A stretch of 64,000 bases of DNA, taken from an uncultured Desulfobacteraceae bacterium (GTDB lineage Bacteria; Desulfobacterota; Desulfobacteria; Desulfobacterales; UBA11574). The notes beneath the pieces are model-generated. The model saw only the letters and a list, made by a program, of their open reading frames with translations. It searched no databases and was not told the DNA's origin. Where the stretch lies: contig CAZQAF010000001.1 of the NCBI GenBank assembly GCA_964591175.1, forward strand, positions 12,879-76,878, written 5' to 3'. The translations under genes were made by a program, and so were the position numbers. Of the stretch, positions 53,551 to 64,000 are shown piece after piece (the stretch's first letter is position 1; every line of letters starts with the position of its first letter).

Positions 53551-55107
53551 ATGAAAAACGGAAAATCGCTGGATGCGACGCTTTTTGTTATTTTCGGAGC
53601 CGCGGGGGATCTGACGCAGCGAAAATTGATTCCCGCCCTTTACAATCTGTATTTGAACGGCTGGATGCCCGAAAAATTCGAAGTCATCGGCACGAGTTCC
53701 AGAGAGATGAATGATGTGAAATTCCGGGACCATCTTCGCAAGGGTGTGAATCAGTCCTCCCGGCGGGGAAAGGTGAAAGACGAAGATTGGAAAAATTTTG
53801 CCCAATGTCTCCATATCATCAAAATGGACCTGACCGAAGCAAAAGCATACAAAACTCTGGCCAAGATACTCGCCGACCGGGAAAAGGAATGGGGCGAGCA
53901 AGCAAACCGCATTTTCTACCTGGCCTTGCCGCCGAGCATGATTGAACCGGTGACCCGGCATCTGGCGGCGTCAAAACTGAATCAAGAACGGAAAAGGGCC
54001 CGGATTGTCGTTGAAAAACCCTTTGGGCATGATCTCGAGTCGGCCGGAACGTTAAACCGCCTTTTGACCGGGATTTTCGAAGAGCGGCAGATTTTTCGCA
54101 TCGACCACTATCTGGGAAAGGAAACCGTACAGAATATTCTGGCCTTCCGCTTCGGCAATACCCTTTTCGAGCCCATCTGGAACCGGCAGTATATCGATCA
54201 TATTCAGATTACCGTGGCCGAAGACCAGGGAATCGGCCACCGGGGGCGATACTATGATAAGGCCGGCGCCCTACGGGACATGATCCAGAATCATCTGCTG
54301 CAGATACTCTGTCTGATCGCCATGGAAGCCCCGGTGTCCTTCGACGATAATGAGGTTCGCAATAAAAAAGTGGATGTGCTTCATGCCATACGGCCCATTT
54401 CCCATGAGCAGGTGCATCGCCATGCCGTGCGCGGCCAGTACGGTGCGGGAAAAATCAACGGGGAATATGTTAAAGGATATCATGACGAAGAAAACATCTC
54501 CGAAAATTCCTTCACGGAAACGTTTGCGGCTATTAAACTTTACGTCGATAACTGGCGATGGCAGGGCGTACCCTTTTTTTTAAGGAGCGGCAAGCGGCTG
54601 CCGGCAAAAATCTCTGAGGTTTCCATTCAATTCAAGCCGGTTCCCCACCAGACATTTCCGACTTCCGCAACATTGGACTGGCGCCCCAACCGGCTGCTGA
54701 TCGCCATCCAGCCGGAAGAGGGGATCCTGTTGCGATTCGAGGTCAAAAAGCCCGGTCCCATATTCCAGCTTTCTCCGGTAATGATGCAGTTTTTCTATCG
54801 TGAGGCGTTTAAAGCCGTGCCACCGGAGGCTTATGAGACATTGCTGCTGGATATCATGAAAAACGACGCCACTCTTTTTTTGAGAGGGGATCAGGCGGAG
54901 GCGGCATGGTCGGTCATCGGCCCTGTTTTAGATGTCTGGAGCAGTGTGAAATCCACCGATTTCCCAAACTATCAGGCCGGTACCTGGGGGCCTGAAGAAT
55001 CCGACATACTCATTGCCCAAGACGGTTTCTCCTGGATTACACCCACCACGCTCAAGTGCCAGGAAGATGCGTCGGTATGCCGGATTATTACGGAACCGCT
55101 GCCATGA
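53551..55107 (+). CDS. zwf: glucose-6-phosphate 1-dehydrogenase
   Basis: 518 aa; FVIFGAAGDLTQRKLIPALYNL, RIDHYLGKE, and the …DMIQNHLLQ… motif. Confidence 0.95.
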   Translation: MKNGKSLDATLFVIFGAAGDLTQRKLIPALYNLYLNGWMPEKFEVIGTSSREMNDVKFRDHLRKGVNQSSRRGKVKDEDWKNFAQCLHIIKMDLTEAKAYKTLAKILADREKEWGEQANRIFYLALPPSMIEPVTRHLAASKLNQERKRARIVVEKPFGHDLESAGTLNRLLTGIFEERQIFRIDHYLGKETVQNILAFRFGNTLFEPIWNRQYIDHIQITVAEDQGIGHRGRYYDKAGALRDMIQNHLLQILCLIAMEAPVSFDDNEVRNKKVDVLHAIRPISHEQVHRHAVRGQYGAGKINGEYVKGYHDEENISENSFTETFAAIKLYVDNWRWQGVPFFLRSGKRLPAKISEVSIQFKPVPHQTFPTSATLDWRPNRLLIAIQPEEGILLRFEVKKPGPIFQLSPVMMQFFYREAFKAVPPEAYETLLLDIMKNDATLFLRGDQAEAAWSVIGPVLDVWSSVKSTDFPNYQAGTWGPEESDILIAQDGFSWITPTTLKCQEDASVCRIITEPLP

Positions 55108-55826
55108 TTCGCGTCCTTTCCGATTTGGAATCTTTAAGCCTGGAGGCGGCCGGGATTTTTGTTCAGCAGGCACAGTCTTCGGTAGACCGGCGGGGACGTT
55201 TCTGCGTGGCGCTTTCCGGAGGCCGCACACCCACGCGCCTGTATGAAATACTGGCCGGCCCGATTTTTCATAATAAAGTTCCCTGGGACCGAACCTATAT
55301 TTTCTGGGGGGATGAACGCTGCGTCCCGGCAGATGACCCAAAAAACAACGCGCTGATGGCACGACAGAGGCTCCTTGACCACGTTCCCGTACCGCCGGAA
55401 CAGATTCACCCGATTCTGTGCCATGAAGCACCGGCAAAATCCGCTAAGCAGTACGGTGACTTGCTGTATCATTTCTATGCCGCCGGTCCGCCGGCTTTCG
55501 ACTTTGTTTTACTGGGGCTGGGAGAAGACGGGCATACCGCGTCCCTTTTTCCATACGATGAAATCTTGAATGATCAAGATGCATGGACGTCTGCCGTTTA
55601 TGTTCAAGAACAGGACATGTACCGGGTAACCCTGATGCCGGCTGTCATCAACCGGGCGCGGATGGTGGTGTTTCTGGTTTCCGGAGATTCCAAAGCATCT
55701 GTTTTAAAAGAGGTGATTGCCGGACCGGCAGACCCTTTCCGGCTGCCGGCCCAGCTGATCCGGCCGGTACCCGGTGAACGGGTCTGGCTGGCCGACCGCG
55801 CGGCTGCAGCCTTGCTGGATCTGTAG
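55104..55826 (+). CDS. pgl: 6-phosphogluconolactonase
   Basis: MIRVLSDLESLSLEAAGIF…ALSGGRTP…WGDERCVP…LLGLGEDGHTASLFP. ATG 55104 forms an ATGA overlap with the zwf stop; the track start at 55056 is an over-extension. Confidence 0.9.
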   Translation: MIRVLSDLESLSLEAAGIFVQQAQSSVDRRGRFCVALSGGRTPTRLYEILAGPIFHNKVPWDRTYIFWGDERCVPADDPKNNALMARQRLLDHVPVPPEQIHPILCHEAPAKSAKQYGDLLYHFYAAGPPAFDFVLLGLGEDGHTASLFPYDEILNDQDAWTSAVYVQEQDMYRVTLMPAVINRARMVVFLVSGDSKASVLKEVIAGPADPFRLPAQLIRPVPGERVWLADRAAAALLDL

Positions 55827-55883
55827 ATCACTCCCCTTTCCTAAAATCCCAATATTTTATCCGGTTTAAAGAAAAAAGCCGTC

Positions 55884-55912
55884 TTGACAATATTTCTGGC
55901 GTGCAATATTTT
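55884..55912 (+). promoter_or_regulatory. candidate sigma70-type promoter for the acetate-channel gene
   Basis: TTGACA (55884..55889), a 17-nt spacer, then TATTTT (55907..55912). It lies between the arms of a 12-bp perfect inverted repeat (55846..55857 and 55965..55976). Confidence 0.35.
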
Positions 55913-56150
55913 AAAATAAGTCGTTGTTGCCGGAGCATGAGGCTGTCTGATATCCCGATCTACGAAATATTGGGATGGTTGATGCTTTGGCACAAAATGT
56001 TAACTTTTTCCTTATTCCTAACTCGAAAGGTAATTCTTCTCACTTCATACTCACTTCACTTTTTCCCGAATTTAAAATGACAATTCATATCACTCAAAAG
56101 GAAAATCTCATTACTTTTCATTATTAAGATACATCTAAAAGGAGGCTCAA

Positions 56151-56741
56151 ATGAATGAAGCAAAATTAGGCAACCCCGCTGTTGTCGGTCTAGGCGGATT
56201 CGGTATGACCACGTTATGCTTGCAGTTCCACAACCTTGGCTGGGTCGGAATTGGACCTGTGCTGTGGCTGGGGCTTATATTCGGAGGCAGCGCCCAATTG
56301 ATTGCGGGCCTGCTGGAGTTCAAAACAGGCAATAACTTTGGTTTTTGCGCGTTCAGCGGATACGGCGCATTCTGGATCGCTTTATGTTTTTATGTTATTT
56401 TCGGAACCAATGCAGAGCTCATAAAAATGTACCCCACCCTGAAATTGACAGGCCATGGTTTAGGCATTTTTCTGCTCATGTGGACATTTTTTACCTTTAT
56501 TTTATTCATCGCGTCCATGAAGCATCACTCTACACTTGCCTGGATATTTCTCACCTTGCTCTTAGGGTTTATCGGGCTGGATTTCAAAGAGCTGGCCGGG
56601 AACAAACTTCTGGGTACACTCGCTGCCTGGGATCTCATCGTCTGCGCGCTGCTGGCCTGGTATCTCATGGCCCATGTGGTTTTTGCAGAGGCCGGTATCA
56701 ATCTGCCCGTTGGCAAGCCATGGATCAAGAGCGGCAGCTAA
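56151..56741 (+). CDS. GPR1/FUN34/YaaH (SatP) family acetate/succinate channel
   Basis: 196 aa; NPAVVGLGGFGMTTL…GGSAQLIAGLLEFKTGNNFGFCAFSGYGAFW with six hydrophobic helices. AAAGGAGG RBS. Confidence 0.85.
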   Translation: MNEAKLGNPAVVGLGGFGMTTLCLQFHNLGWVGIGPVLWLGLIFGGSAQLIAGLLEFKTGNNFGFCAFSGYGAFWIALCFYVIFGTNAELIKMYPTLKLTGHGLGIFLLMWTFFTFILFIASMKHHSTLAWIFLTLLLGFIGLDFKELAGNKLLGTLAAWDLIVCALLAWYLMAHVVFAEAGINLPVGKPWIKSGS

Positions 56742-56959
56742 TATTTCGGGCTTCGGCCCAATAGCTTAGCAACGCATTTAACTGTGCCCCGTCTGCAAAA
56801 AGCAGCCGGGGCATCGACTGCCGGAACCCCGCCGCCTGCAAAGAGGCCGCAATCTTTTTTCATGCCGGGTGTTTTTCCGTTTTGATTTATGGTATAGTAC
56901 ATTTTTAACTGCGGCGGCGCGCGACAAATTTATTAATTTAGCATTCTGGAGGCTACCTC

Positions 56960-59710
56960 ATGATACAGAAGAAACGGTTATGGGTTGTTGGAGGGCTGGT
57001 AATTATCGTTTTGGCTGCGCTGAGCTTGTTTATGCATTACTACGGCGATTGGCTTTGGTTCCAAAATTTGGGCTTTTCGCAGGTTTTTACCACGGTTTTG
57101 TGGGCAAAGTTCTTAGCTTTTGCAGCGTTTTTTATCATCTTTGCTATTTTTGCAGGGGTGAACATTTTTATCGCCAGAAAATGGGGGGCGCCGTCTCGAT
57201 CTCTCAGGACGGTTACGCCTCAATCACCGGTCACATCCCTGGATATTCTTTTTCAAGAGAAATACGCTCCCTATGTATGGGCCCTTATCGTCGTGTTCCT
57301 GTCCGGCATCATGGGTGTGAGTGCGTCCAACTCATGGATGACTTTTTTGCAGTTCATCCACAATTCTAAATTCGGGGTTTCGGATCCCATTTTTTCCAAA
57401 GATGTGGGCTTTTATGTCTTCAAGCTGCCGCTCTATAATTTTTTGCAGCAGTGGTGTTTATTTGCGTTGTTTTTTGTGATCGTCGCCGTCGGTCTCTCCT
57501 ATTATATGGATCAGGCCGTAGGGGTTCAGCAAAACCGGTTCTATTTTGATTCCAAGGCAAAGGTCCATCTGGTGGTGCTGGGCGGACTTTTTGCGCTGAG
57601 ACTCGCCTGGTCCTACTGGCTGAAAATTTACGGTCTGATGTATTCCAACAGCGGCGTCGCCTACGGGGCCAGTTACGCGGATGTCCATGCACAATTACCC
57701 GCCTACCGGGTTCTGTTGGTTTTGAGCGTTCTTGTGGCTATTTTGCTGTTTTTCATGCCCGTTCTGAAAAAATGGAAGTGGGTAATTTATGCCATCGGGA
57801 TTTATTTTGTGGTTCTGGTCAGCTTTTCCTGGATTTATCCGGGCATCATCGAGCAATATGTGGTGAAGCCCAATGAACTCACCAAGGAAACCCCCTACAT
57901 AGAGAACAATATCAAGTTCACCCGTCTTGCTTATGGTTTCAACAAGGCAAAGGAAGAGCCGTTTCCGATCAAGGACACCATGACATACAGCGATATTAAG
58001 AAAAACGAATCCACGATCCACAATATCCGGTTGTGGGATCGCCGGCCGCTGATTCAAACCTACAAGCAGCTTCAGGAAATCAGGCTTTACTACGATTTTA
58101 ACAGCGTGGATGTGGACCGTTACCATTTGAAAGGCAAGTACACGGAAGTCGCCCTTGCCGGAAGGGAACTGCCCGCGTCGCAGCTCCCCGCGCGTGCCAG
58201 AACCTGGGTCAATATGCACCTCGTTTACACCCATGGCTACGGGGTGGTCATGAGCCCCGTTAACGAATTCACTTCGGACGGTCTTCCCAATTTTATCGTC
58301 CAGGATATTCCGCCCCGCTCCAGCACTTCCATCGACATCACGCAGCCTGAAATCTACTATGGTGAAGAAACCAATGAATTTACCATCGTCCATACCACTA
58401 CCCAAGAATTCGATTATCCCAAAGGCGATCAGAATGCGTATACTTCATATCGTGGAAAAGGCGGCGTGCAGCTTTCCAGCTACTTCCGAAGACTGGTCTA
58501 CAGTCTGGATTTGTCCGATATCAATTTCATTCTGTCCCGCCATATCACAAATCAAAGCCGGGTCATGTTCCACCGCGTGATTACCGACCGGGACCGGACA
58601 ATAGCGCCGTTTCTTTCGTATGATTCGGATCCCTATTTGGTGGTGGGCGATAACGGTCATCTGTATTGGATTCATGACGCCTATACGACCACCAACATGT
58701 ATCCCTATTCGGAACCTGTGGTTCAGAGCCGTGAAAAGAACGGCATCAATTACATCCGAAACTCGGTCAAGGTCGTGATTGACGCTTACAACGGGGACGT
58801 TTCTTACTACATCATCGATCCTTCGGATCCCCTGGTTCAGACCTACAGTAAAATATTTCCCGTCTTGTTCAAACCGGCAAAAGACATGCCTAAATTTCTG
58901 AGGGCACATATCCGTTATCCCATGGATCTCTTTATCATCCAGGCACAAATGTACGCCACGTATCATATGACCGACCCGCAGGTTTTTTACAACCGGGAGG
59001 ATTTATGGAGCATCCCTCAGGAAATTTATGAGAATAAACAACAATCCATACTGCCTTATTACATCATTATGAAATTACCGGGTGCCCAAACAGAAGAATT
59101 CATCCTGATGCTTCCGCTGACGCCGTCGAAAAAAGATAATATGGTCGCCTGGATGTGCGCTCGCTGCGATGGCGACAATTATGGGCAGCTCCTGATCTAT
59201 ACACTGTCCAAAGAAAAGTTGATTTACGGTCCCATGCAGATCGAGGCGCGCATCAACCAGCAGCCGAGCATATCTTCGGAGCTGACGTTGTGGGGCCAGC
59301 AAGGCTCCAACGTGATTCGAGGAAATCTGCTCATCATCCCCATCGCCCATTCCTTTTTATACGTAGAGCCGGTTTATCTCCAGTCGGAACAGGGCCAGAT
59401 ACCGCAGTTGAAACGGGTGATCGCCGTTCAGAATGGACAGTTGGAAATGAGAAAGAACCTCGATGCGGCGCTGCGTGCAATCTTTTCCATTGAAGGCGTG
59501 CCGGAAAAGCAGCAACAAAAAGTGCTCAGCGGCCTGCCTGCCGGCCCCCTTTCCGACATGGCCCAACAGGCGCTCACTCACTACAACAAGGCTCTGGAAT
59601 ATCTCAAACAGGCCAACTGGCGCAAGTACGGCGATGAACTGGATCAAATCCATCAGATACTGCAGTCCATGGCAGGAAATAAAAAGGAAAGGCCGGCCGG
59701 GAAGAAATGA
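56960..59710 (+). CDS. UPF0182 family large membrane protein
   Basis: 916 aa; N-terminal multi-TM region beginning …YYGDWLWFQNLGFSQVF…, then a large soluble region (…VNMHLVYTHGYGVVMSPVN…). This matches my recollection of UPF0182. Confidence 0.75.
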   Translation: MIQKKRLWVVGGLVIIVLAALSLFMHYYGDWLWFQNLGFSQVFTTVLWAKFLAFAAFFIIFAIFAGVNIFIARKWGAPSRSLRTVTPQSPVTSLDILFQEKYAPYVWALIVVFLSGIMGVSASNSWMTFLQFIHNSKFGVSDPIFSKDVGFYVFKLPLYNFLQQWCLFALFFVIVAVGLSYYMDQAVGVQQNRFYFDSKAKVHLVVLGGLFALRLAWSYWLKIYGLMYSNSGVAYGASYADVHAQLPAYRVLLVLSVLVAILLFFMPVLKKWKWVIYAIGIYFVVLVSFSWIYPGIIEQYVVKPNELTKETPYIENNIKFTRLAYGFNKAKEEPFPIKDTMTYSDIKKNESTIHNIRLWDRRPLIQTYKQLQEIRLYYDFNSVDVDRYHLKGKYTEVALAGRELPASQLPARARTWVNMHLVYTHGYGVVMSPVNEFTSDGLPNFIVQDIPPRSSTSIDITQPEIYYGEETNEFTIVHTTTQEFDYPKGDQNAYTSYRGKGGVQLSSYFRRLVYSLDLSDINFILSRHITNQSRVMFHRVITDRDRTIAPFLSYDSDPYLVVGDNGHLYWIHDAYTTTNMYPYSEPVVQSREKNGINYIRNSVKVVIDAYNGDVSYYIIDPSDPLVQTYSKIFPVLFKPAKDMPKFLRAHIRYPMDLFIIQAQMYATYHMTDPQVFYNREDLWSIPQEIYENKQQSILPYYIIMKLPGAQTEEFILMLPLTPSKKDNMVAWMCARCDGDNYGQLLIYTLSKEKLIYGPMQIEARINQQPSISSELTLWGQQGSNVIRGNLLIIPIAHSFLYVEPVYLQSEQGQIPQLKRVIAVQNGQLEMRKNLDAALRAIFSIEGVPEKQQQKVLSGLPAGPLSDMAQQALTHYNKALEYLKQANWRKYGDELDQIHQILQSMAGNKKERPAGKK

Positions 59711-59756: not shown

Positions 59757-60977
59757 CTACATTATGATCGGCGCGTCTTTTGCTGCTTCGTATTGTTCCT
59801 TTCGAACAGGCCAATACCAGACGGCGCCGTCGGCAGCCATTAAAAAGCCTGCGATGATGAGGAATAAATCCACGATGGTCAACATGCTCAGGCCGAAGTA
59901 TTCGATAAGACCCAGCCCGATGCTCATGAAGGCAACGCCGGTGCGAATGAAGGAAAGGCCGGTTCTGGCACGCGCATAGATGGTCCGGTAACAGCCTTCC
60001 ACCGTACGTTGGGCCGCAAGGGCGTTTCTTTCATGGGCCAGAGAGGATCGCGCCTTGTTGTCCAAAGAGGGTTCGATGAACACGCAGCTGTTGGGAAGCA
60101 TGTCGGCAAGCCGTGCCAGCATGGTCCATTTTTCGGACGGCTTTTCCGGCTTTCTTTCGACATACTGATAGTTTTCGAGAAAATACAGGGTCGCTGCGGA
60201 TACCTCCACTAGGGTCTGGTGCTTCGGCGGACGCAAAATGGATCTTTTGATCCTAAAGTAGGTGGAGATCCCGACAAGGACGATGCAAAACCCCGACCCG
60301 ATCATCACCCAGTAAAGGGGAACCAAAGATGGGACCGGCCGGATACGCAGCAGTGCTCTGCCCAGCATGATGAGTCCCAATCCCCAGCGGAGCAGGCTGA
60401 GGTAGGTTCTGGCTCTGGCAAAATCGGTTCGATAGCAGGCCAGTTTCGTTCTCCAGCGGGCCATGGTATTGCGCCAGAAAGCAAGACCGGTTCGTTCATT
60501 GCCGATGATTTGTTCGGGAATGGAATTCAGAAAGTCCTGGATAAAGGCTCTGATGTCCTCTCCCAGAGCAACCCTGAATTCAAAGTCTTTTGCCGGGATG
60601 CATCTTTTGACTTCGTCGACCATCCGGGAATCCTGCGGGTCGCTCGCTGCAACCACAACCGTCTCGTGATCCTTGATGATGGGGAACCACTGGCCGGCAC
60701 AGAGCATATCGGCATCCAGTCCTGCCAGCAATTCCGGCGGCACGGGAAGTCTCTCGTCATATTCGGCCCACCGGCAATGATAGTACTCGGAAAGGGCCTC
60801 GAGAATTTTTCGCCGGGGAACATCATATTCGTGGCGAAGCACCCATTCCAATTCCATGTTGCGGCACACCGCATCATGGCTCTCCGCACGGAGTTCTTCC
60901 AGGCTTATCTCGCCGGCATCGACCAAATGCAAAAGCCTTTCCATCTCTTGCGGCGGCATGTCATTAGAGATCTTCAT
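59757..60977 (-). CDS. T2SSE_N (GspE/MshE N-terminal-like) domain fused to 2 x DUF202 membrane modules
   Basis: 406 aa; …ILEALSEYYHCRWAEYDERLPVPPELLAGLDADMLCAGQWFPIIKDHETVVVAASDPQDSRMVDEVKRCIP…FRVALGEDIRAFI (T2SSE_N pattern). DUF202-type ERT/RT motifs follow (GNERTGLAFWRNTMARWRTKLACYRTDFARARTYL; LAHERNALAAQRTVEGCYRTIYARARTGLSFIRTG), each followed by TM helices. Confidence 0.65.
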   Translation of the reverse strand: MKISNDMPPQEMERLLHLVDAGEISLEELRAESHDAVCRNMELEWVLRHEYDVPRRKILEALSEYYHCRWAEYDERLPVPPELLAGLDADMLCAGQWFPIIKDHETVVVAASDPQDSRMVDEVKRCIPAKDFEFRVALGEDIRAFIQDFLNSIPEQIIGNERTGLAFWRNTMARWRTKLACYRTDFARARTYLSLLRWGLGLIMLGRALLRIRPVPSLVPLYWVMIGSGFCIVLVGISTYFRIKRSILRPPKHQTLVEVSAATLYFLENYQYVERKPEKPSEKWTMLARLADMLPNSCVFIEPSLDNKARSSLAHERNALAAQRTVEGCYRTIYARARTGLSFIRTGVAFMSIGLGLIEYFGLSMLTIVDLFLIIAGFLMAADGAVWYWPVRKEQYEAAKDAPIIM

Positions 60978-62775
60978 GACTGAATATCACTTTCTTCCAT
61001 AACGGGGAGGGGGTTGCATACTCCGGGAACACGATTTCCATATCGGCAAAGCAATACGGAAACCCTTTTTTGGTCTTTTCTGCCGGCAGGTGCCAGTAAA
61101 AACCGTCCGCGATCAGGAACACTCCCACCAGTATCAGGGCTGCATTGTGAAGCGTCCACAGGAGATTGGCGGAGCCGAAGTAGACCTGAAGCCCCAAGCC
61201 TATGGAAAAAAAACTGGCCCCTGTTCTTATAAAAGACATACCGGTTCTTGACCGGGCCATGACGGTGCGAAGCCTCGACTTGACGTTGCGACGGTCGGCA
61301 ATCAGCGTCCTTTCCAGAGCGAGCCCCGTCGTTCCCCAAATCCCCGGGGCATGCGAGCCCTTGATGGTAAGGGTATGGGGAAGGTCGTCCAGATGAAGCC
61401 GCTTGTGAAACGGGCGGAACATGAAATCCCAGATGGACACTTTTCTCTGGATGTTTTTGATCGCCTCGGCGCTCACCTTGGATGTTTTTCGGCCCGGAAT
61501 ATACCAGTAAAAACCTTCCAATGTGATGGCAATGCCAATAAGAATGAGAACCAGATCAAAGATTCTCCATGCGCTGGCAGGGAACTGCCTCAGCAGCGCA
61601 ATCCCAAGGCCTGAAAATGCGATTCCCGTTCGCGTAAACGCCAGACCGGTGCGGGCACGCGCCATAATCGTACGATAATTGGCAAGGATGGTTCGTTCTT
61701 CGGCCAGATCGGTCCTGTCGATGGCCAAAAATCGCCGTTTCGTGACCGGTGTGAGACAGTTCCAACGCCTGCGAAGCGCCTCCGCACTTTCTATGGGCTG
61801 GGTTCGTTTAAAAGTGGGCTTGCCATCCTGATAATCGAATTCAAGAACGGTTGTCCCGAACGTGGGCTCTGTCGGAATATAATCGACCCGGGTCTTTTTC
61901 ACTTTTCTGGCCGGCAGATACCAAACGAGCCCGTCGACGAACATCACGATGCCAACCACCAGCATCAACGCTTCCAGTACATTCAGAATCCCCACGCCAA
62001 AAACCCTGAACAGCACCAGGGCAATGGACACGAAGGCCAGTCCGGTGCGGATAAACGCCAAACCGGTTCTGCCCTTGGCAAGAGACGTTCTATACTGGGC
62101 CAGCATCGTTCGCTGATCCGCCAGCCATGTTCGAAGCCTGGCAAGGGGTGTTCTTCCGGCCGACGGCGGAAAATTGTGGTTCACGTCCCGGCTGGTTTCA
62201 ATCATGAAACGGATGTCGGATGGCAGCGAAACCAGGAATCGAATCTCTGAAACATTCAGCATTTTTCTTGCTGCTTCGGCAACTACAGGATCCCGGGGAT
62301 CGGAAGCGGCAACGCAGGCTTTTTTCCCCCTTACCGAGATGGGGTACCAGCGCTTCTCCATGAGTTGATCCAGATCCAGCAACCGGATGACATCCGGTTC
62401 AACCTGGATCATCTCATCGTATTCCAAAGGGGCGACACCGTAATGATCCGAAAGAAGATTCAACACCTCATGCCTGGACACTTGCCGGTTTAAGATCAAT
62501 GTCTCCAGATATTCGACAGCGCCGGTTTGCTCTTTCAGTATCCTCTCCAGCGCTTCTTTGGCGATCCGTCCTCCAGCCGCTATTTCGGGAACATTTGGGC
62601 TTTGGGCATCTTTAGCTTGGGAACCTTGGGCCCCGTTCATTTTAACATTCATCGTCTCATTACTCATCATTTCCTCGTGCCGAAAAACAAGATCTGCGAA
62701 GCCGTTTATCCGGCCGGCCTTAATGTGCGCCATGATGGATTTATTTTCAAGCTCTGATTTTGTTCGGGCTCTCAC
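60964..62775 (-). CDS. T2SSE_N-like domain fused to 3 x DUF202 membrane modules (paralog of the downstream gene)
   Basis: 603 aa; …VLNLLSDHYGVAPLEYDEMIQVEPDVIRLLDLDQLMEKRWYPISVRGKKACVAASDPRDPVVAEAARKML…, then three repeats of the …L(A/I)xxRTxLAxYRTxxAxxRTGLAFxRTG… type with TM pairs. Has a 14-nt overlap with the downstream paralog. The start is uncertain (GTG 62775; ATG 62733 also possible). Confidence 0.65.
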   Translation of the reverse strand: MRARTKSELENKSIMAHIKAGRINGFADLVFRHEEMMSNETMNVKMNGAQGSQAKDAQSPNVPEIAAGGRIAKEALERILKEQTGAVEYLETLILNRQVSRHEVLNLLSDHYGVAPLEYDEMIQVEPDVIRLLDLDQLMEKRWYPISVRGKKACVAASDPRDPVVAEAARKMLNVSEIRFLVSLPSDIRFMIETSRDVNHNFPPSAGRTPLARLRTWLADQRTMLAQYRTSLAKGRTGLAFIRTGLAFVSIALVLFRVFGVGILNVLEALMLVVGIVMFVDGLVWYLPARKVKKTRVDYIPTEPTFGTTVLEFDYQDGKPTFKRTQPIESAEALRRRWNCLTPVTKRRFLAIDRTDLAEERTILANYRTIMARARTGLAFTRTGIAFSGLGIALLRQFPASAWRIFDLVLILIGIAITLEGFYWYIPGRKTSKVSAEAIKNIQRKVSIWDFMFRPFHKRLHLDDLPHTLTIKGSHAPGIWGTTGLALERTLIADRRNVKSRLRTVMARSRTGMSFIRTGASFFSIGLGLQVYFGSANLLWTLHNAALILVGVFLIADGFYWHLPAEKTKKGFPYCFADMEIVFPEYATPSPLWKKVIFSHEDL

Positions 62776-62912
62776 GGCACACCCTCGGGATGCTCATGCG
62801 ACGCCACTATGTCATTCCTGGCCGGCACGTTTACCGGCAGAAAAATGAGTTGTATATCACATTTCCACGAAAGCTGCAATTGCATCGGTTAATCTTCGCA
62901 GATCCAAAGGAA

Positions 62913-63055
62913 GTGTTCAGTGCTCAAAAGAAGTGTTCGGTGTTCAGTGTTCAGTGTTCAGGGATACAGAATTCAGGCAGGATAAATTTTTCGTTAAAAA
63001 TCTGCTCTTCGTATCGCGTGTAATTGCCCTTTCTGAACTCTGAACCCCTGAACAC
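62913..63055. repeat. GTGTTCA heptamer array with inverted TGAAC words
   Basis: GTGTTCA GTGCTCA aaagaa GTGTTCG GTGTTCA GTGTTCA GTGTTCA ggg (62913..62963). After about 70 nt comes tgaactc tgaaccc c tgaacac (63034..63055). gtgttcaggg and ccctgaacac form a perfect 10-bp inverted repeat. Confidence 0.7.
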
Positions 63056-63236
63056 TACAAGAACAAATCAATATTTTAATTGACAAATTTGTTTGAGATG
63101 ACCAGAATACTTACGTGTTGTTATGCTTATTTATTTTCGAACCGTCGCGGAATTTGGCTGTGAATTTTTAACGGAAATACAACATGTTGAAATGCTATGC
63201 GCCGATGTCATGGCTGTGTTCTGAGTTGAATATTTC

Positions 63237-64000
63237 ATGAAACTGGTCCATAAAATCATCCTGGGCAATGTCCTGGGTATTGTTACCATTGTCTTGATAT
63301 CGTTTTTTTCGTATCATGAGGTTAAGCTTATTCAGGCCAAATTGCGTTTTGTCGAGATAGCAGACAATCTCAATGCATCTTTTCTGGAGATGAGACTGTC
63401 GGAAAAGAACTATTTTTTGTACAAGGATCCGCTGGCGCTCCAGTCAATTAAGACGGAATTGCATGAGAGCGAACAAATGATCCGCAGCATGCGAGAAAAC
63501 ATCATCACGGCTGTAGGGATCGAAAATTTTAAAAAGCTCAATTCCAACCTCAAAGAATACGGAGAAGAGGTTGAAAAAATAGACATAAGCGGGAAAAATG
63601 TCAAAGTTTTGGAAGCCGGTATACGAGAGTCGGGCAGAGCTTTAAGGATGTTTTCCGAGAGCATCATAAAGCTTGAAAGAAACAAGGTTAATCAAATTAT
63701 TTCCGCTTCAAGTAAGGGGCTGCTTTATTTTTTCTGCCTGGTCCTGTTTGGGGCGACAACCAGCACATATTTATTTTTTTCAAAAATATTCAAGTCCCTC
63801 CGCCAAATTGAAAAAACGGCCAATTCCATATCCGAAGGAAACTTCCTTGAAACCGAATGCAAAATATCCAATGATGAACTGGGTTCCGCCATGCAGGCCA
63901 TCAACTCAATGTGCGTCGAACTTAAGACCCGGCATGAACAACTTATCCAGTCCAAAAAATTGGCGTCTATCGGGGTTCTCACGGCCGGCGTGGCCCATGA
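63237..64000 (+). CDS. sensor histidine kinase with HAMP domain, 5' part (runs off the right edge)
   Basis: Absent from the track because it has no stop in the window. Hand translation from ATG 63237 gives MKLVHKIILGNVLGIVTIVLISFFSYHEV… (TM1), a periplasmic or sensor stretch, TM2 (LLYFFCLVLFGATTSTYLFF), a HAMP-like segment (…SKIFKSLRQIEKTANSISEGNF…NDELGSAMQAINSM…) and an H-box onset, QSKKLASIGVLTAGVAH. Confidence 0.8.
   Translation, partial: MKLVHKIILGNVLGIVTIVLISFFSYHEVKLIQAKLRFVEIADNLNASFLEMRLSEKNYFLYKDPLALQSIKTELHESEQMIRSMRENIITAVGIENFKKLNSNLKEYGEEVEKIDISGKNVKVLEAGIRESGRALRMFSESIIKLERNKVNQIISASSKGLLYFFCLVLFGATTSTYLFFSKIFKSLRQIEKTANSISEGNFLETECKISNDELGSAMQAINSMCVELKTRHEQLIQSKKLASIGVLTAGVAH

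What the first reader, a model, noticed from the sequence alone, without database searches (positions are those of the whole stretch)
59757..62775. Tandem paralogs fusing a T2SSE_N (MshEN-like) domain to repeated DUF202 membrane modules
Seen in sequence:
- Two overlapping (14 nt) minus-strand genes of 603 and 406 aa.
- Each has a cytoplasmic N-terminal region with the GspE/MshE N-terminal pattern (…DHYGVAPLEYDEM…WYPISVRGKKACVAASDPRDP…; …YYHCRWAEYDERL…WFPIIKDHETVVVAASDPQDS…).
- Three and two copies respectively of an ERT…YRT…RTGLAF.RTG motif follow, each with paired TM helices (the DUF202/YidH signature).
- There is no ATPase domain.

Established knowledge: the MshE N-terminal domain family includes high-affinity c-di-GMP receptors.

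Inference: these may be nucleotide-second-messenger-gated or protein-docking membrane proteins of unknown function. This domain architecture is not one I know to be characterised. A divergent histidine kinase lies next door.
Basis: partly seen in the sequence, partly recalled or inferred. Interest (0 to 1): 0.55.

Follow-up and report, generated by a model that had tools for sequence, protein, structure and literature searches.

The report
Arginine-ladder membrane protein pair with kinase
Two overlapping genes encode membrane proteins that together carry five copies of the pore module of the yeast polyphosphate channel, each with six invariant arginines at 7-residue spacing, and they travel with their own sensor kinase in sulfate-reducing bacteria; this is probably an uncharacterised regulated channel for negatively charged molecules.

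Summary
Two overlapping minus-strand genes (A, up to 603 aa; B, 406 aa) each encode an MshEN/GSPII-like domain followed by three and two DUF202 modules, with no ATPase.

The c-di-GMP idea is not supported. The ligand-contacting Gly and Arg of both half-sites are replaced in about 90-99% of 250 family members, while the fold-determining residues are kept.

29 of 30 rung positions are Arg, at 96-100% conservation.

The modules are homologous to TM1-TM2 of the yeast VTC polyphosphate channel. That channel is a 3:1:1 pentamer, and its two pore-lining basic rings (Vtc1 K24, R31) align with rungs -2 and -1.

A and B are always paired. In 66 of 70 informative species-level loci they sit next to an orthologous histidine kinase, nearly always with a stand-alone receiver. 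About half the loci add a PEP-synthase-like dikinase.

Best reading (confidence about 0.4): an A:B pseudo-pentameric (3+2), arginine-lined conduit for anions or polyanions, controlled by the two-component system. The degenerate MshEN domains would act as docking modules.

The system is unnamed in databases and in the searched literature.

The parts
60964..62775 (-). Gene A: MshEN-like domain + three DUF202 arginine-ladder hairpins (maximal ORF 603 aa; probable start at 62670, 62667 or 62652)
62188..62574 (-). A residues ~68-196: degenerate MshEN/GSPII domain (four-helix subdomain plus alpha/beta subdomain)
   Evidence: Pfam; profile vs PDB hits PilF/PilB/MshE; Foldseek TM ~0.6 to PilF GSPII-B, MshE, XpsE; c-di-GMP contacts lost
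61891..62154 (-). Module A1 (aa 208-295): ladder helix with R208/215/222/229/236/243, TM2 with D281
61444..61737 (-). Module A2 (aa 347-444): R347/354/361/368/375/382, TM2 with E420
61063..61332 (-). Module A3 (aa 482-571): T482, R489/496/503/510/517, TM2 with D557; followed by the conserved C-terminal FPYCF...WKKV(V/I)FSH segment with two short strands
59757..60977 (-). Gene B: MshEN-like domain + two DUF202 arginine-ladder hairpins, 406 aa; its start overlaps the end of A by 14 nt
60528..60950 (-). B residues ~10-150: degenerate MshEN/GSPII domain
60237..60497 (-). Module B1 (aa 161-247): R162/169/176/183/190/197; the only module without the conserved TM2 acidic residue
59784..60050 (-). Module B2 (aa 310-398): R310/317/324/331/338/345, TM2 with D383
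63237..64000 (+). 5' part of the dedicated sensor histidine kinase (TM1, ~140-aa extracytoplasmic helical sensor, TM2, HAMP, start of HisKA). It runs off the window; in the 93%-identical relative the stand-alone receiver gene follows it.
62776..63236 (.). Divergent A/kinase intergenic region, AT-rich, with a sigma-70-like site at 63080-63108 (+) and an array of GTGTTCA heptamers

Best explanation
A and B are the two subunits of one cytoplasmic-membrane complex. Each DUF202 module is a helical hairpin. Its first helix is ~52 residues long and runs from ~35 residues out in the cytoplasm into the membrane. It carries six arginines at exact 7-residue spacing on one face (R-T-x-L-A-x-x), flanked by Leu and Thr, while the opposite face is variable.

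The hairpin is homologous to TM1-TM2 of the eukaryotic VTC polyphosphate channel, in which five TM1 helices (3 Vtc1 + Vtc3 + Vtc4) line a pore with two rings of basic residues. I infer that one A (3 hairpins) and one B (2 hairpins) close a pseudo-pentameric ring. Its lumen and ~50-60 Å cytoplasmic vestibule would be lined by 29 arginines, forming an electropositive conduit for an anionic substrate, most plausibly a phosphate-rich anion or polyanion.

The two N-terminal MshEN/GSPII-like domains keep the fold but have lost the c-di-GMP contacts. I infer that they serve as cytoplasmic docking or plug domains. The co-transcribed sensor kinase and its output-less receiver are the regulators: an extracytoplasmic signal leads to the phosphorylated receiver, which acts directly on the complex (docking on the MshEN domains is my guess), or on the PEP-synthase-like dikinase encoded downstream in many genomes.

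Shown: the domain content, the ladder and its conservation, homology and register to Vtc1, obligate A-B pairing, the operon with kinase and receiver, and loss of the c-di-GMP motif. Inferred: the 1:1 pentameric ring, pore function, substrate class, and mode of regulation.
For: Domains.

Ladder: 29 of 30 rung positions are Arg at 96-100% in 125 A and 117 B sequences, down to ~38% identity. Position 5 is Ala/Ser and position 4 is Leu/Met, so the conserved arc of the helix is centred on Arg/Ala. The same stripe stays Ser/Gly/Ala through the membrane and ends in a further basic residue at the outer mouth in A1, A2 and B1.

Structure: AlphaFold models are confident (pLDDT 81.4 and 80.7) and show five long-helix + TM2 hairpins.

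Homology to VTC: four of the five modules scanned on their own pass Pfam's DUF202 cutoff and A3 falls just under it (22.2 vs 23.4 bits). Yeast Vtc1 hits the same model at 1.9e-17, with K24, R31 and N38 at profile positions 1, 8 and 15, which are rungs -2, -1 and 0. hhalign gives the same register at low probability. Vtc4 is listed as DUF202-containing. VTC is a 3:1:1 pentamer whose TM1 helices line the pore with K24 and R31 rings needed for polyP translocation.

Pairing: 79 of 80 species-level loci have A followed by B, and the start/stop overlap is kept in three lineages. All aligned A proteins have 3 modules and all aligned B proteins have 2. No single-chain 5x fusion or other stoichiometry appears among 1.84 billion representatives.

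Regulators: 65 of 70 informative loci have an orthologous kinase directly downstream (64 of them also the receiver) and 1 has it divergent.

Wider guild: MshEN-less ladder proteins sit with the same partner types (HAMP kinase, receiver, dikinase, TauE, Alph_Pro_TM) in rearranged order.

Docking role: GSPII/N1 domains are known docking modules for EpsL, PilZ and PilM.
Against: No oligomer model could be computed, so the ring is numerology plus homology.

Four Nitrospirota loci carry A-A-B (3+3+2), and one locus adds a single-module ladder gene, so five is not the only possible count.

Each module has 2 helices, not the 3 of Vtc1/YidH, and VTC's E30-R83 inter-subunit lock is absent.

The VTC link was not confirmed by structure or direct sequence comparison. 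Foldseek against the PDB and a module profile against PDB sequences found no VTC match, and hhalign probability was only 7.9%.

Relatives with more than 20 heptads look more like long stalks than pores.

No polyphosphate kinase, SPX or TTM domain is present, and no substrate is indicated by the window's own neighbours.

The small-xxx-small pattern in the membrane part could simply reflect tight helix packing.
Confidence: 0.4

Rival explanations
1. Signal-input or scaffold model. A/B are not a conduit but an accessory membrane sensor or scaffold of the two-component system. The arginine heptads form an anion-stabilised coiled-coil stalk (Arg layers bridged by phosphate, sulfate or polyP) whose assembly state reports cytoplasmic anion or polyP level, or membrane state, to the kinase. 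Alternatively it tethers a cytoplasmic partner or granule to the membrane.
For: Relatives have 20 or more consecutive RT heptads, far longer than any pore needs. The receiver has no output domain, so A/B could lie upstream rather than downstream. Periplasmic loops are only 5-8 residues. Small-xxx-small patterns in TM1 fit tight packing. Stress genes (Usp, BON, small HSPs) recur nearby.
Against: The kinase has its own ~140-aa extracytoplasmic sensor. The hairpin is homologous to a proven pore-lining hairpin, and the basic-ring positions are precisely the conserved ones. A polar or charged stripe running right across the membrane span is hard to place anywhere but in a lumen.
Confidence: 0.25
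2. One reading: the MshEN domains are c-di-GMP (or other cyclic dinucleotide) receptors that gate the membrane modules.
For: Significant MshEN Pfam hits and fold match; the nearest solved relatives are c-di-GMP-bound PilF GSPII-B and MshE. The hydrophobic skeleton of both half-sites is kept. One kinase-less locus has a GGDEF gene nearby.
Against: No strict or relaxed motif in 122 sequences, whereas half-site I of PilF GSPII-B scores as a positive control. Position-3 Gly is replaced by F/L (half-site I) and E/D (half-site II). Position-1 Arg and the terminal Gln are mostly lost. Small deviations already abolish binding in PilF GSPII-A. No GGDEF/EAL gene is a conserved neighbour.
Confidence: 0.07
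3. Type II secretion / type IV pilus accessory: the MshEN-like domains mimic the N1 domain of GspE/PilB and anchor A/B to a GspL/PilM-type platform.
For: Some database entries call B 'type II secretion protein' or 'GspE/PulE/PilB domain-containing'. The N1 domain normally binds platform proteins.
Against: No pilus or secretion genes are among the conserved neighbours in 80 loci. The conserved partners are a kinase, a receiver and a dikinase. The names derive only from the domain hit.
Confidence: 0.03

Closest known systems
Eukaryotic VTC polyphosphate polymerase/translocase: membrane domain of Vtc1/Vtc3/Vtc4 (Pfam DUF202, PF02656)
   Same: Same Pfam family. TM1-TM2 hairpin with the (E)RT signature. 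The basic residues 7 apart on the pore-lining TM1 (Vtc1 K24, R31) align with rungs -2 and -1. The membrane part of TM1 is Gly/small-rich. Five modules in total, split 3 + (1+1) in VTC and 3 + 2 here.
   Different: Six basic rungs instead of two, including one deeper in the membrane where Vtc1 has Asn38. Two helices per module instead of three. Modules are fused in two chains rather than five. The E30-R83 'ionic lock' is absent; instead there is an acidic residue in TM2 of four modules. No SPX or TTM polymerase domains. Bacterial, and regulated by a two-component system. Not detectable by direct sequence or Foldseek comparison with VTC structures.
Bacterial YidH/YidG-type DUF202 proteins
   Same: Same Pfam family; small inner-membrane proteins whose function is also unknown. 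YidH surfaced only as an unconfirmed hit in a D-alanine export screen.
   Different: From memory: YidH is a ~115-aa single-module, three-TM protein with two RT motifs. There is no ladder, no tandem modules, no MshEN domain and no dedicated kinase.
MshEN / GSPII (T2SSE_N) domains of MshE, PilB, PilF, GspE/XpsE
   Same: Homologous over both subdomains (profile E 1e-12 to PilF; Foldseek TM ~0.6). The hydrophobic skeleton and the turn Gly of both half-sites are kept.
   Different: Not attached to a secretion ATPase. The c-di-GMP contact residues are replaced in both half-sites, resembling the non-binding PilF GSPII-A and XpsE N domains, which act in protein docking.
CorA-type pentameric channels (analogy only)
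   Same: Two TM helices per unit. A very long helix runs from a cytoplasmic funnel into the membrane as the pore liner. Five units make the pore. This is a weak Foldseek hit only (rank 35).
   Different: No sequence homology, cation-selective, and a homopentamer with a large alpha/beta cytoplasmic domain.

Membership tests
Pfam MshEN / GSPII domain (PF05157) | Profile match above the gathering score | tested here: met
   A 39.8 bits and B 47.4 bits against a cutoff of 23.1
Pfam MshEN / GSPII domain (PF05157) | Two-subdomain fold (four-helix bundle plus alpha/beta subdomain) | tested here: met
   AlphaFold secondary structure. Foldseek TM 0.57-0.62 to PilF GSPII-B, MshE and XpsE N domains.
MshEN-type c-di-GMP receptor | Two tandem 24-residue motifs RLGxx(L/V/I)(L/V/I)xxG(L/V/I)(L/V/I)xxxxLxxxLxxQ separated by 5 residues | tested here: not met
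   No strict or relaxed motif in 122 sequences. Position 3 Gly is F/L (half-site I) and E/D (half-site II), position 1 Arg is mostly lost, and the terminal Gln is S/A or Y.
MshEN-type c-di-GMP receptor | Measured c-di-GMP binding | not testable with these tools
   Needs ITC or DRaCALA on the purified N-domains
GspE/PilB secretion ATPase | N2 and C-terminal ATPase domains with Walker motifs | tested here: not met
   No T2SSE ATPase hit. The TIGR02538 match covers only PilB positions 11-136.
Pfam DUF202 (PF02656) | Profile match above the gathering score | tested here: met
   A 48.9 bits (3 stretches) and B 32.2 bits (2 stretches). Isolated modules score 30.2, 33.8, 22.2, 27.2 and 24.9 bits against a cutoff of 23.4.
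Pfam DUF202 (PF02656) | Three transmembrane helices per domain, as in Vtc1 and YidH (from memory) | tested here: not met
   Each module has two helices only. An even number is required to keep the topology in tandem repeats.
VTC-type polyphosphate channel | Basic residues on pore-lining TM1 at the K24 and R31 positions | tested here: met
   Pfam coordinates place Vtc1 K24 and R31 on rungs -2 and -1, which are Arg in all five modules. hhalign gives the same register.
VTC-type polyphosphate channel | Five DUF202 domains forming one pseudo-symmetric ring | not testable with these tools
   3 + 2 = 5 and obligate A-B pairing are consistent. No multimer prediction or coordinates were available.
VTC-type polyphosphate channel | Inter-subunit E30-R83 ionic lock | tested here: not met
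   The E30 equivalent is G/A/S, and the TM3 region carrying R83 is absent
VTC-type polyphosphate channel | Attached SPX sensor and TTM polyphosphate polymerase domains | tested here: not met
   No such Pfam hits in A, B or the conserved neighbours
Two-component signalling system | HisKA + HATPase_c kinase paired with a receiver-domain protein | tested here: met
   The kinase has HAMP/HisKA/HATPase_c and there is a 121-aa receiver in the 93%-identical locus L004. The window holds only the kinase's first 254 codons.
Known anti-phage defence systems (PADLOC) | Match to any defence-system protein model | tested here: not met
   No hits for A, B, the kinase or the dikinase; only generic receiver-domain hits

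The most novel reading that the evidence does not exclude
The system is a bacterial counterpart of the eukaryotic VTC machine. In this reading the 3+2 arginine-lined DUF202 ring translocates polyphosphate, or another phosphate-rich polymer, across the cytoplasmic membrane. The PEP-synthase-like dikinase (ATP-grasp plus swivelling phospho-histidine) that recurs with ladder proteins would feed or energise it, and a dedicated two-component system would switch it. That would be the first membrane polyphosphate translocase in bacteria and the first function for bacterial DUF202.
Probability: 0.1. Interest if true: 0.9.

Novelty: new variant of a known kind. Interest (0 to 1): 0.66.

Why it matters
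DUF202 is a widespread bacterial membrane domain with no assigned function. Its only understood relative is the pore of the eukaryotic polyphosphate polymerase.

This system offers an unusually legible version of the domain. It has five modules in fixed 3+2 stoichiometry, a perfectly conserved 29-arginine ladder that marks the working face, and a dedicated kinase/receiver that could be used to switch it.

If the ring-and-conduit model holds, it would show how bacteria move highly charged anions or polyanions across the membrane. It would also explain why VTC is a pentamer, and it would add a case of a GSPII/MshEN domain recruited away from both secretion ATPases and c-di-GMP sensing.

The system is confined to sulfate-reducing and related anaerobes (Desulfobacterota and Thermodesulfovibrionia-type Nitrospirota). 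It may therefore bear on phosphorus or sulfur anion handling in anoxic sediments. A cultured carrier, Desulforhabdus amnigena, makes it experimentally reachable.

Tried and rejected
- **Module profile:** a profile of the isolated modules found nothing among PDB sequences at E ≤ 10.
- **Natural fusion:** I looked for a natural A+B (5-module) fusion to fold as a single chain. None exists among the best 150 of 1.84 billion representatives.
- **P0250:** this protein (DUF202 hairpin + receiver + PPDK_N) first looked like a Rosetta-stone fusion. Both the receiver and PPDK_N matches are truncated and overlapping, and the locus lacks A, B and the kinase. I treat it as a deletion remnant.
- **RNA elements:** Rfam found no riboswitch or leader. 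The single sub-threshold 'miRNA' hit is the heptamer palindrome.
- **Defence systems:** no PADLOC membership.
- **Kinase-less loci:** the three loci without a kinase show no common substitute partner.
- **Cytidylate_kinase-like genes:** they accompany MshEN-less ladder proteins but are absent from the A/B loci and from the window.
- **Module counting:** regex-based counting proved fragile for B's first module and was replaced by alignment-column counts.
- **Literature:** searches for DUF202, YidH and MshEN found no description of this architecture.
Full report
**1. Observation**

The two minus-strand ORFs are exactly where stated: 60964-62775 (603 aa, GTG start) and 59757-60977 (406 aa), overlapping by 14 nt.

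Pfam gives gene A an MshEN domain (E 4.4e-10) and DUF202 in three stretches (8.8e-13). Gene B gets MshEN (1.9e-12) and DUF202 in two stretches (1.5e-7). All scores are above the curated thresholds, and there is no ATPase domain. NCBIfam matches only the first ~130 positions of PilB.

The 603-aa length is the maximal ORF. Homologues are 545-600 aa, and a GAGGA site precedes M36/M37. The real protein is therefore probably 562-568 aa.

The neighbouring kinase starts at 63237 on the plus strand, divergent from A, and runs off the window.

**2. Anatomy**

With the five modules placed in register, the repeating unit is R-T-x-(L/M)-A-x-x, six times per module. B's first module was re-anchored at R197 using Pfam coordinates.

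Counted on alignment columns of 125 A and 117 B proteins, down to ~38% identity, 29 of the 30 rung positions are Arg at 96-100%. The exception, A3 rung -5, is a near-invariant Thr (123 of 125). Position 5 is Ala/Ser and position 4 is Leu/Met.

On a helical wheel the conserved residues form one arc centred on Arg/Ala and flanked by Leu and Thr. Positions 3, 6 and 7 vary.

AlphaFold2 models built on deep alignments are confident: A has pLDDT 81.4 and pTM 0.76, and B has pLDDT 80.7 and pTM 0.58. Each module is a hairpin:

| Module | Long helix | Second helix |
|---|---|---|
| A1 | 208-259 | 265-295 |
| A2 | 343-397 | 404-444 |
| A3 | 483-533 | 538-571 |
| B1 | 161-212 | 216-247 |
| B2 | 310-361 | 367-398 |

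The long helix is ~52 residues and the second is 31-41 residues. Only ~17-19 residues after the last rung are hydrophobic. About five rungs (~50 Å) therefore project into the cytoplasm, and the outer loops are 5-8 residues long.

The Arg/Ala stripe continues through the membrane as Ser/Gly/Ala. It ends in another basic residue at the outer mouth in A1 (R257, 83%), A2 (R396, 98%) and B1 (R/H).

Four modules carry a near-invariant acidic residue in TM2 (D281, E420, D557, B-D383). B1 does not, so any ring would be intrinsically asymmetric.

The linkers are also strongly conserved (PTEPTFGTT, RWNRLSPVMRRRFLAIDRTD, SIWDFMF, PGIWGTTGLALERT, C-terminal FPYCF…WKKVVFSH).

**3. The MshEN domain and c-di-GMP**

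A family profile hits PilF GSPII domains (1e-12), PilB and MshE over both subdomains. Foldseek gives TM ~0.6 to c-di-GMP-bound PilF GSPII-B and MshE, and to the XpsE N domain. Domain membership is therefore solid.

[quoted passage not shown] Neither this nor the authors' relaxed pattern occurs in any of 122 family sequences. The relaxed pattern does find half-site I of PilF GSPII-B, which serves as a positive control.

With PilF GSPII-B aligned in, the skeleton positions (6, 7, 10, 11, 17) are conserved, but the contact residues are not:

- Position 3 Gly is F/L in half-site I (about 76% of A, with no Gly among the commonest residues, and about 95% of B).
- Position 3 Gly is E/D in half-site II (85% of A, 91% of B).
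- Position 1 Arg is mostly absent.
- The terminal Gln is S/A or Y.

The PilF GSPII-A study shows that small deviations abolish binding, and that Gly-to-Ala alone costs 10-30-fold. Canonical c-di-GMP binding is therefore not supported.

GSPII/N1 domains are otherwise known as docking modules for EpsL/GspL, PilZ and PilM.

**4. Relation to VTC**

Vtc4 is listed as containing DUF202.

It reproduces the five landmark residues cited in the structure papers (K24, E30, R31, M42, R83). It hits PF02656 at 1.9e-17, with residues 24-85 on profile positions 1-67. The five isolated modules start at profile position 1 two heptads before the last rung.

The mapping is therefore:

| Vtc1 residue | Ladder position |
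|---|---|
| K24 | rung -2 |
| R31 | rung -1 |
| N38 | rung 0 |

hhalign gives the same register, at low probability.

In VTC the membrane domain is a 3:1:1 pentamer of three-helix DUF202 domains. Five TM1 helices line the pore, and the K24 and R31 rings make the vestibule electropositive and are required for polyP translocation. E30-R83 forms an inter-subunit lock.

The present family keeps both rings, adds one deeper rung and three more cytoplasmic rungs, lacks TM3, and lacks the E30-R83 lock. Direct comparison with solved structures did not recover VTC. The link therefore rests on shared Pfam membership and register.

**5. Distribution and context**

A has more than 1000 homologue clusters at 90% identity. 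All are 'hypothetical' or 'YidH (DUF202 family)'. B behaves likewise, with occasional 'type II secretion protein' labels and one cultured source, Desulforhabdus amnigena.

An exhaustive HMMER pass over 1.84 billion representatives finds 38 at E ≤ 1e-30 and no five-module single chain.

A scan of 185,579 species genomes finds 224 carriers. Of the best 80, 41 are Nitrospirota (Thermodesulfovibrionales, Dissulfurispiraceae, Ca. Sulfobium) and 37 are Desulfobacterota.

In those 80 loci:

- 79 have A followed by B.
- Of the 70 with at least 2.2 kb downstream, 65 have an orthologous kinase directly downstream, and 64 of these also have a stand-alone receiver.
- One, from the window's lineage, has the pair divergent upstream.
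- One has a frameshifted kinase.
- Three have none.

Gene calls overlap or abut (A/B by 14-26 nt, RR/dikinase by 4 nt), which indicates an operon.

The kinase has two TM segments around a ~140-aa helical sensor (sub-threshold 4HB_MCP match), then HAMP, HisKA and HATPase_c. The receiver has no output domain.

An ~860-aa PEP-synthase-like protein follows the receiver in 33 of 41 Nitrospirota loci and lies nearby in 6 of 37 Desulfobacterota loci. It has a PPDK_N ATP-grasp domain and a PEP-utilizer swivel domain with the TSH motif, but no pyruvate-binding C-domain. TauE, Alph_Pro_TM and Usp genes recur upstream, mostly in Nitrospirota. None of these extras is in the window.

**6. A wider ladder family**

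The exhaustive search also recovered two further kinds of ladder protein without MshEN:

- small single-hairpin proteins with 5-7 RT heptads;
- proteins with more than 20 consecutive heptads.

Their neighbourhoods repeat the same partner types in different orders:

- The P0195 locus has a dikinase, a metallophosphatase and the ladder protein. On the other strand it has a cytidylate-kinase-like/BON protein, a receiver, Alph_Pro_TM, TauE and a HAMP kinase.
- L089 has a dikinase fragment, a cytidylate-kinase-like gene, a long-ladder protein and a HAMP protein.
- P0196 lies immediately after an A-B-kinase-receiver operon.

This argues that the ladder proteins, the two-component pair and the dikinase are functionally linked, rather than merely syntenic.

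**7. Interpretation**

I commit to the following model: an A:B complex whose five ladder helices form an arginine-lined vestibule and pore for an anionic, probably phosphate-rich, substrate. The degenerate MshEN domains act as docking or plug elements. The kinase and receiver act as post-translational regulators.

The steps that are shown and the steps that are inferred are listed under the best explanation. The main rival is that the ladder is an anion-stabilised stalk serving as a sensor or scaffold. The A-A-B loci, the extra single-module gene and the very long ladders are the observations that sit least comfortably with a strict pentameric pore.

**8. Novelty**

No paper in the searched library describes an MshEN-DUF202 protein, the RT heptad ladder or this operon. 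Bacterial DUF202 has no assigned function; YidH appeared only as an unconfirmed candidate in a D-alanine export screen.

I rate the finding as a new variant of a known kind (DUF202/VTC-type membrane modules), with a realistic chance of revealing a new transport or signalling principle.

Noticed in passing
window 62912-63056: The A/kinase intergenic region holds four direct GTGTTCAG copies (6 in the whole window against 1.1 expected) facing an inverted set (arms 62953-62981 / 63028-63056, 83% complementary). This produced a spurious sub-threshold Rfam miRNA hit. The array is absent from all 86 related loci fetched by then, even those whose A protein is 84-93% identical. It could be a lineage-specific operator or a small repeat element.
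   Followed up: partly
P0179, P0195, P0190, P0178, P0184; loci L089 and the P0195 contig: A wider family of MshEN-less DUF202 proteins carries 20 or more consecutive 'RTxLAxx' heptads before a single 2-TM hairpin, i.e. predicted helices well over 200 Å long. They sit next to cytidylate-kinase-like (PF13189), PEP-synthase-like dikinase and HAMP kinase genes. The purpose of the variable ladder length is unexplained.
   Followed up: partly
L062, L068, L075, L084 (Nitrospirota): Four loci carry two full-length A paralogues in tandem before B (A-A-B-kinase-receiver-dikinase). This is either alternative A subunits or a stoichiometry other than 3+2.
   Followed up: partly
L087:139-5803: One metagenomic locus has A split into two ORFs (304 + 175 aa), then B, the kinase and the receiver, followed by an extra single-module ladder protein (P0196, 124 aa).
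   Followed up: partly
L086:10001-11872 (P0250): A 623-aa ORF joins a B-like last hairpin, the first half of a receiver domain and a PPDK_N/PEP-utilizer enzyme lacking its N-terminus. It is probably a deletion remnant of a B-kinase-receiver-dikinase operon. It sits after three small heat-shock genes and a DnaJ gene.
   Followed up: yes
L004:1-7337 (93%-identical relative, beyond the window's right end): Past the kinase and receiver lie an aldo-keto reductase and a PstS-like (PBP_like_2) ABC transporter with two permeases and an ATPase. A phosphate-uptake system next to the module is suggestive, but it was seen in this lineage only.
   Followed up: no
window 53551-59710: Context genes on the plus strand: glucose-6-phosphate dehydrogenase-like (53551-55107) and 6-phosphogluconolactonase-like (55056-55826) ORFs, both named from the translation only. 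Then come a GPR1/FUN34/YaaH-family channel (56151-56741) and a 916-aa UPF0182 membrane protein (56960-59710) that ends 46 nt from the end of B (convergent). None recurs with A/B in other phyla.
   Followed up: partly
L073:12830-15234: In one of the three kinase-less loci, a CheZ-like gene and a PAS-GGDEF diguanylate cyclase lie just downstream of B. This is the only c-di-GMP gene seen near the system.
   Followed up: no
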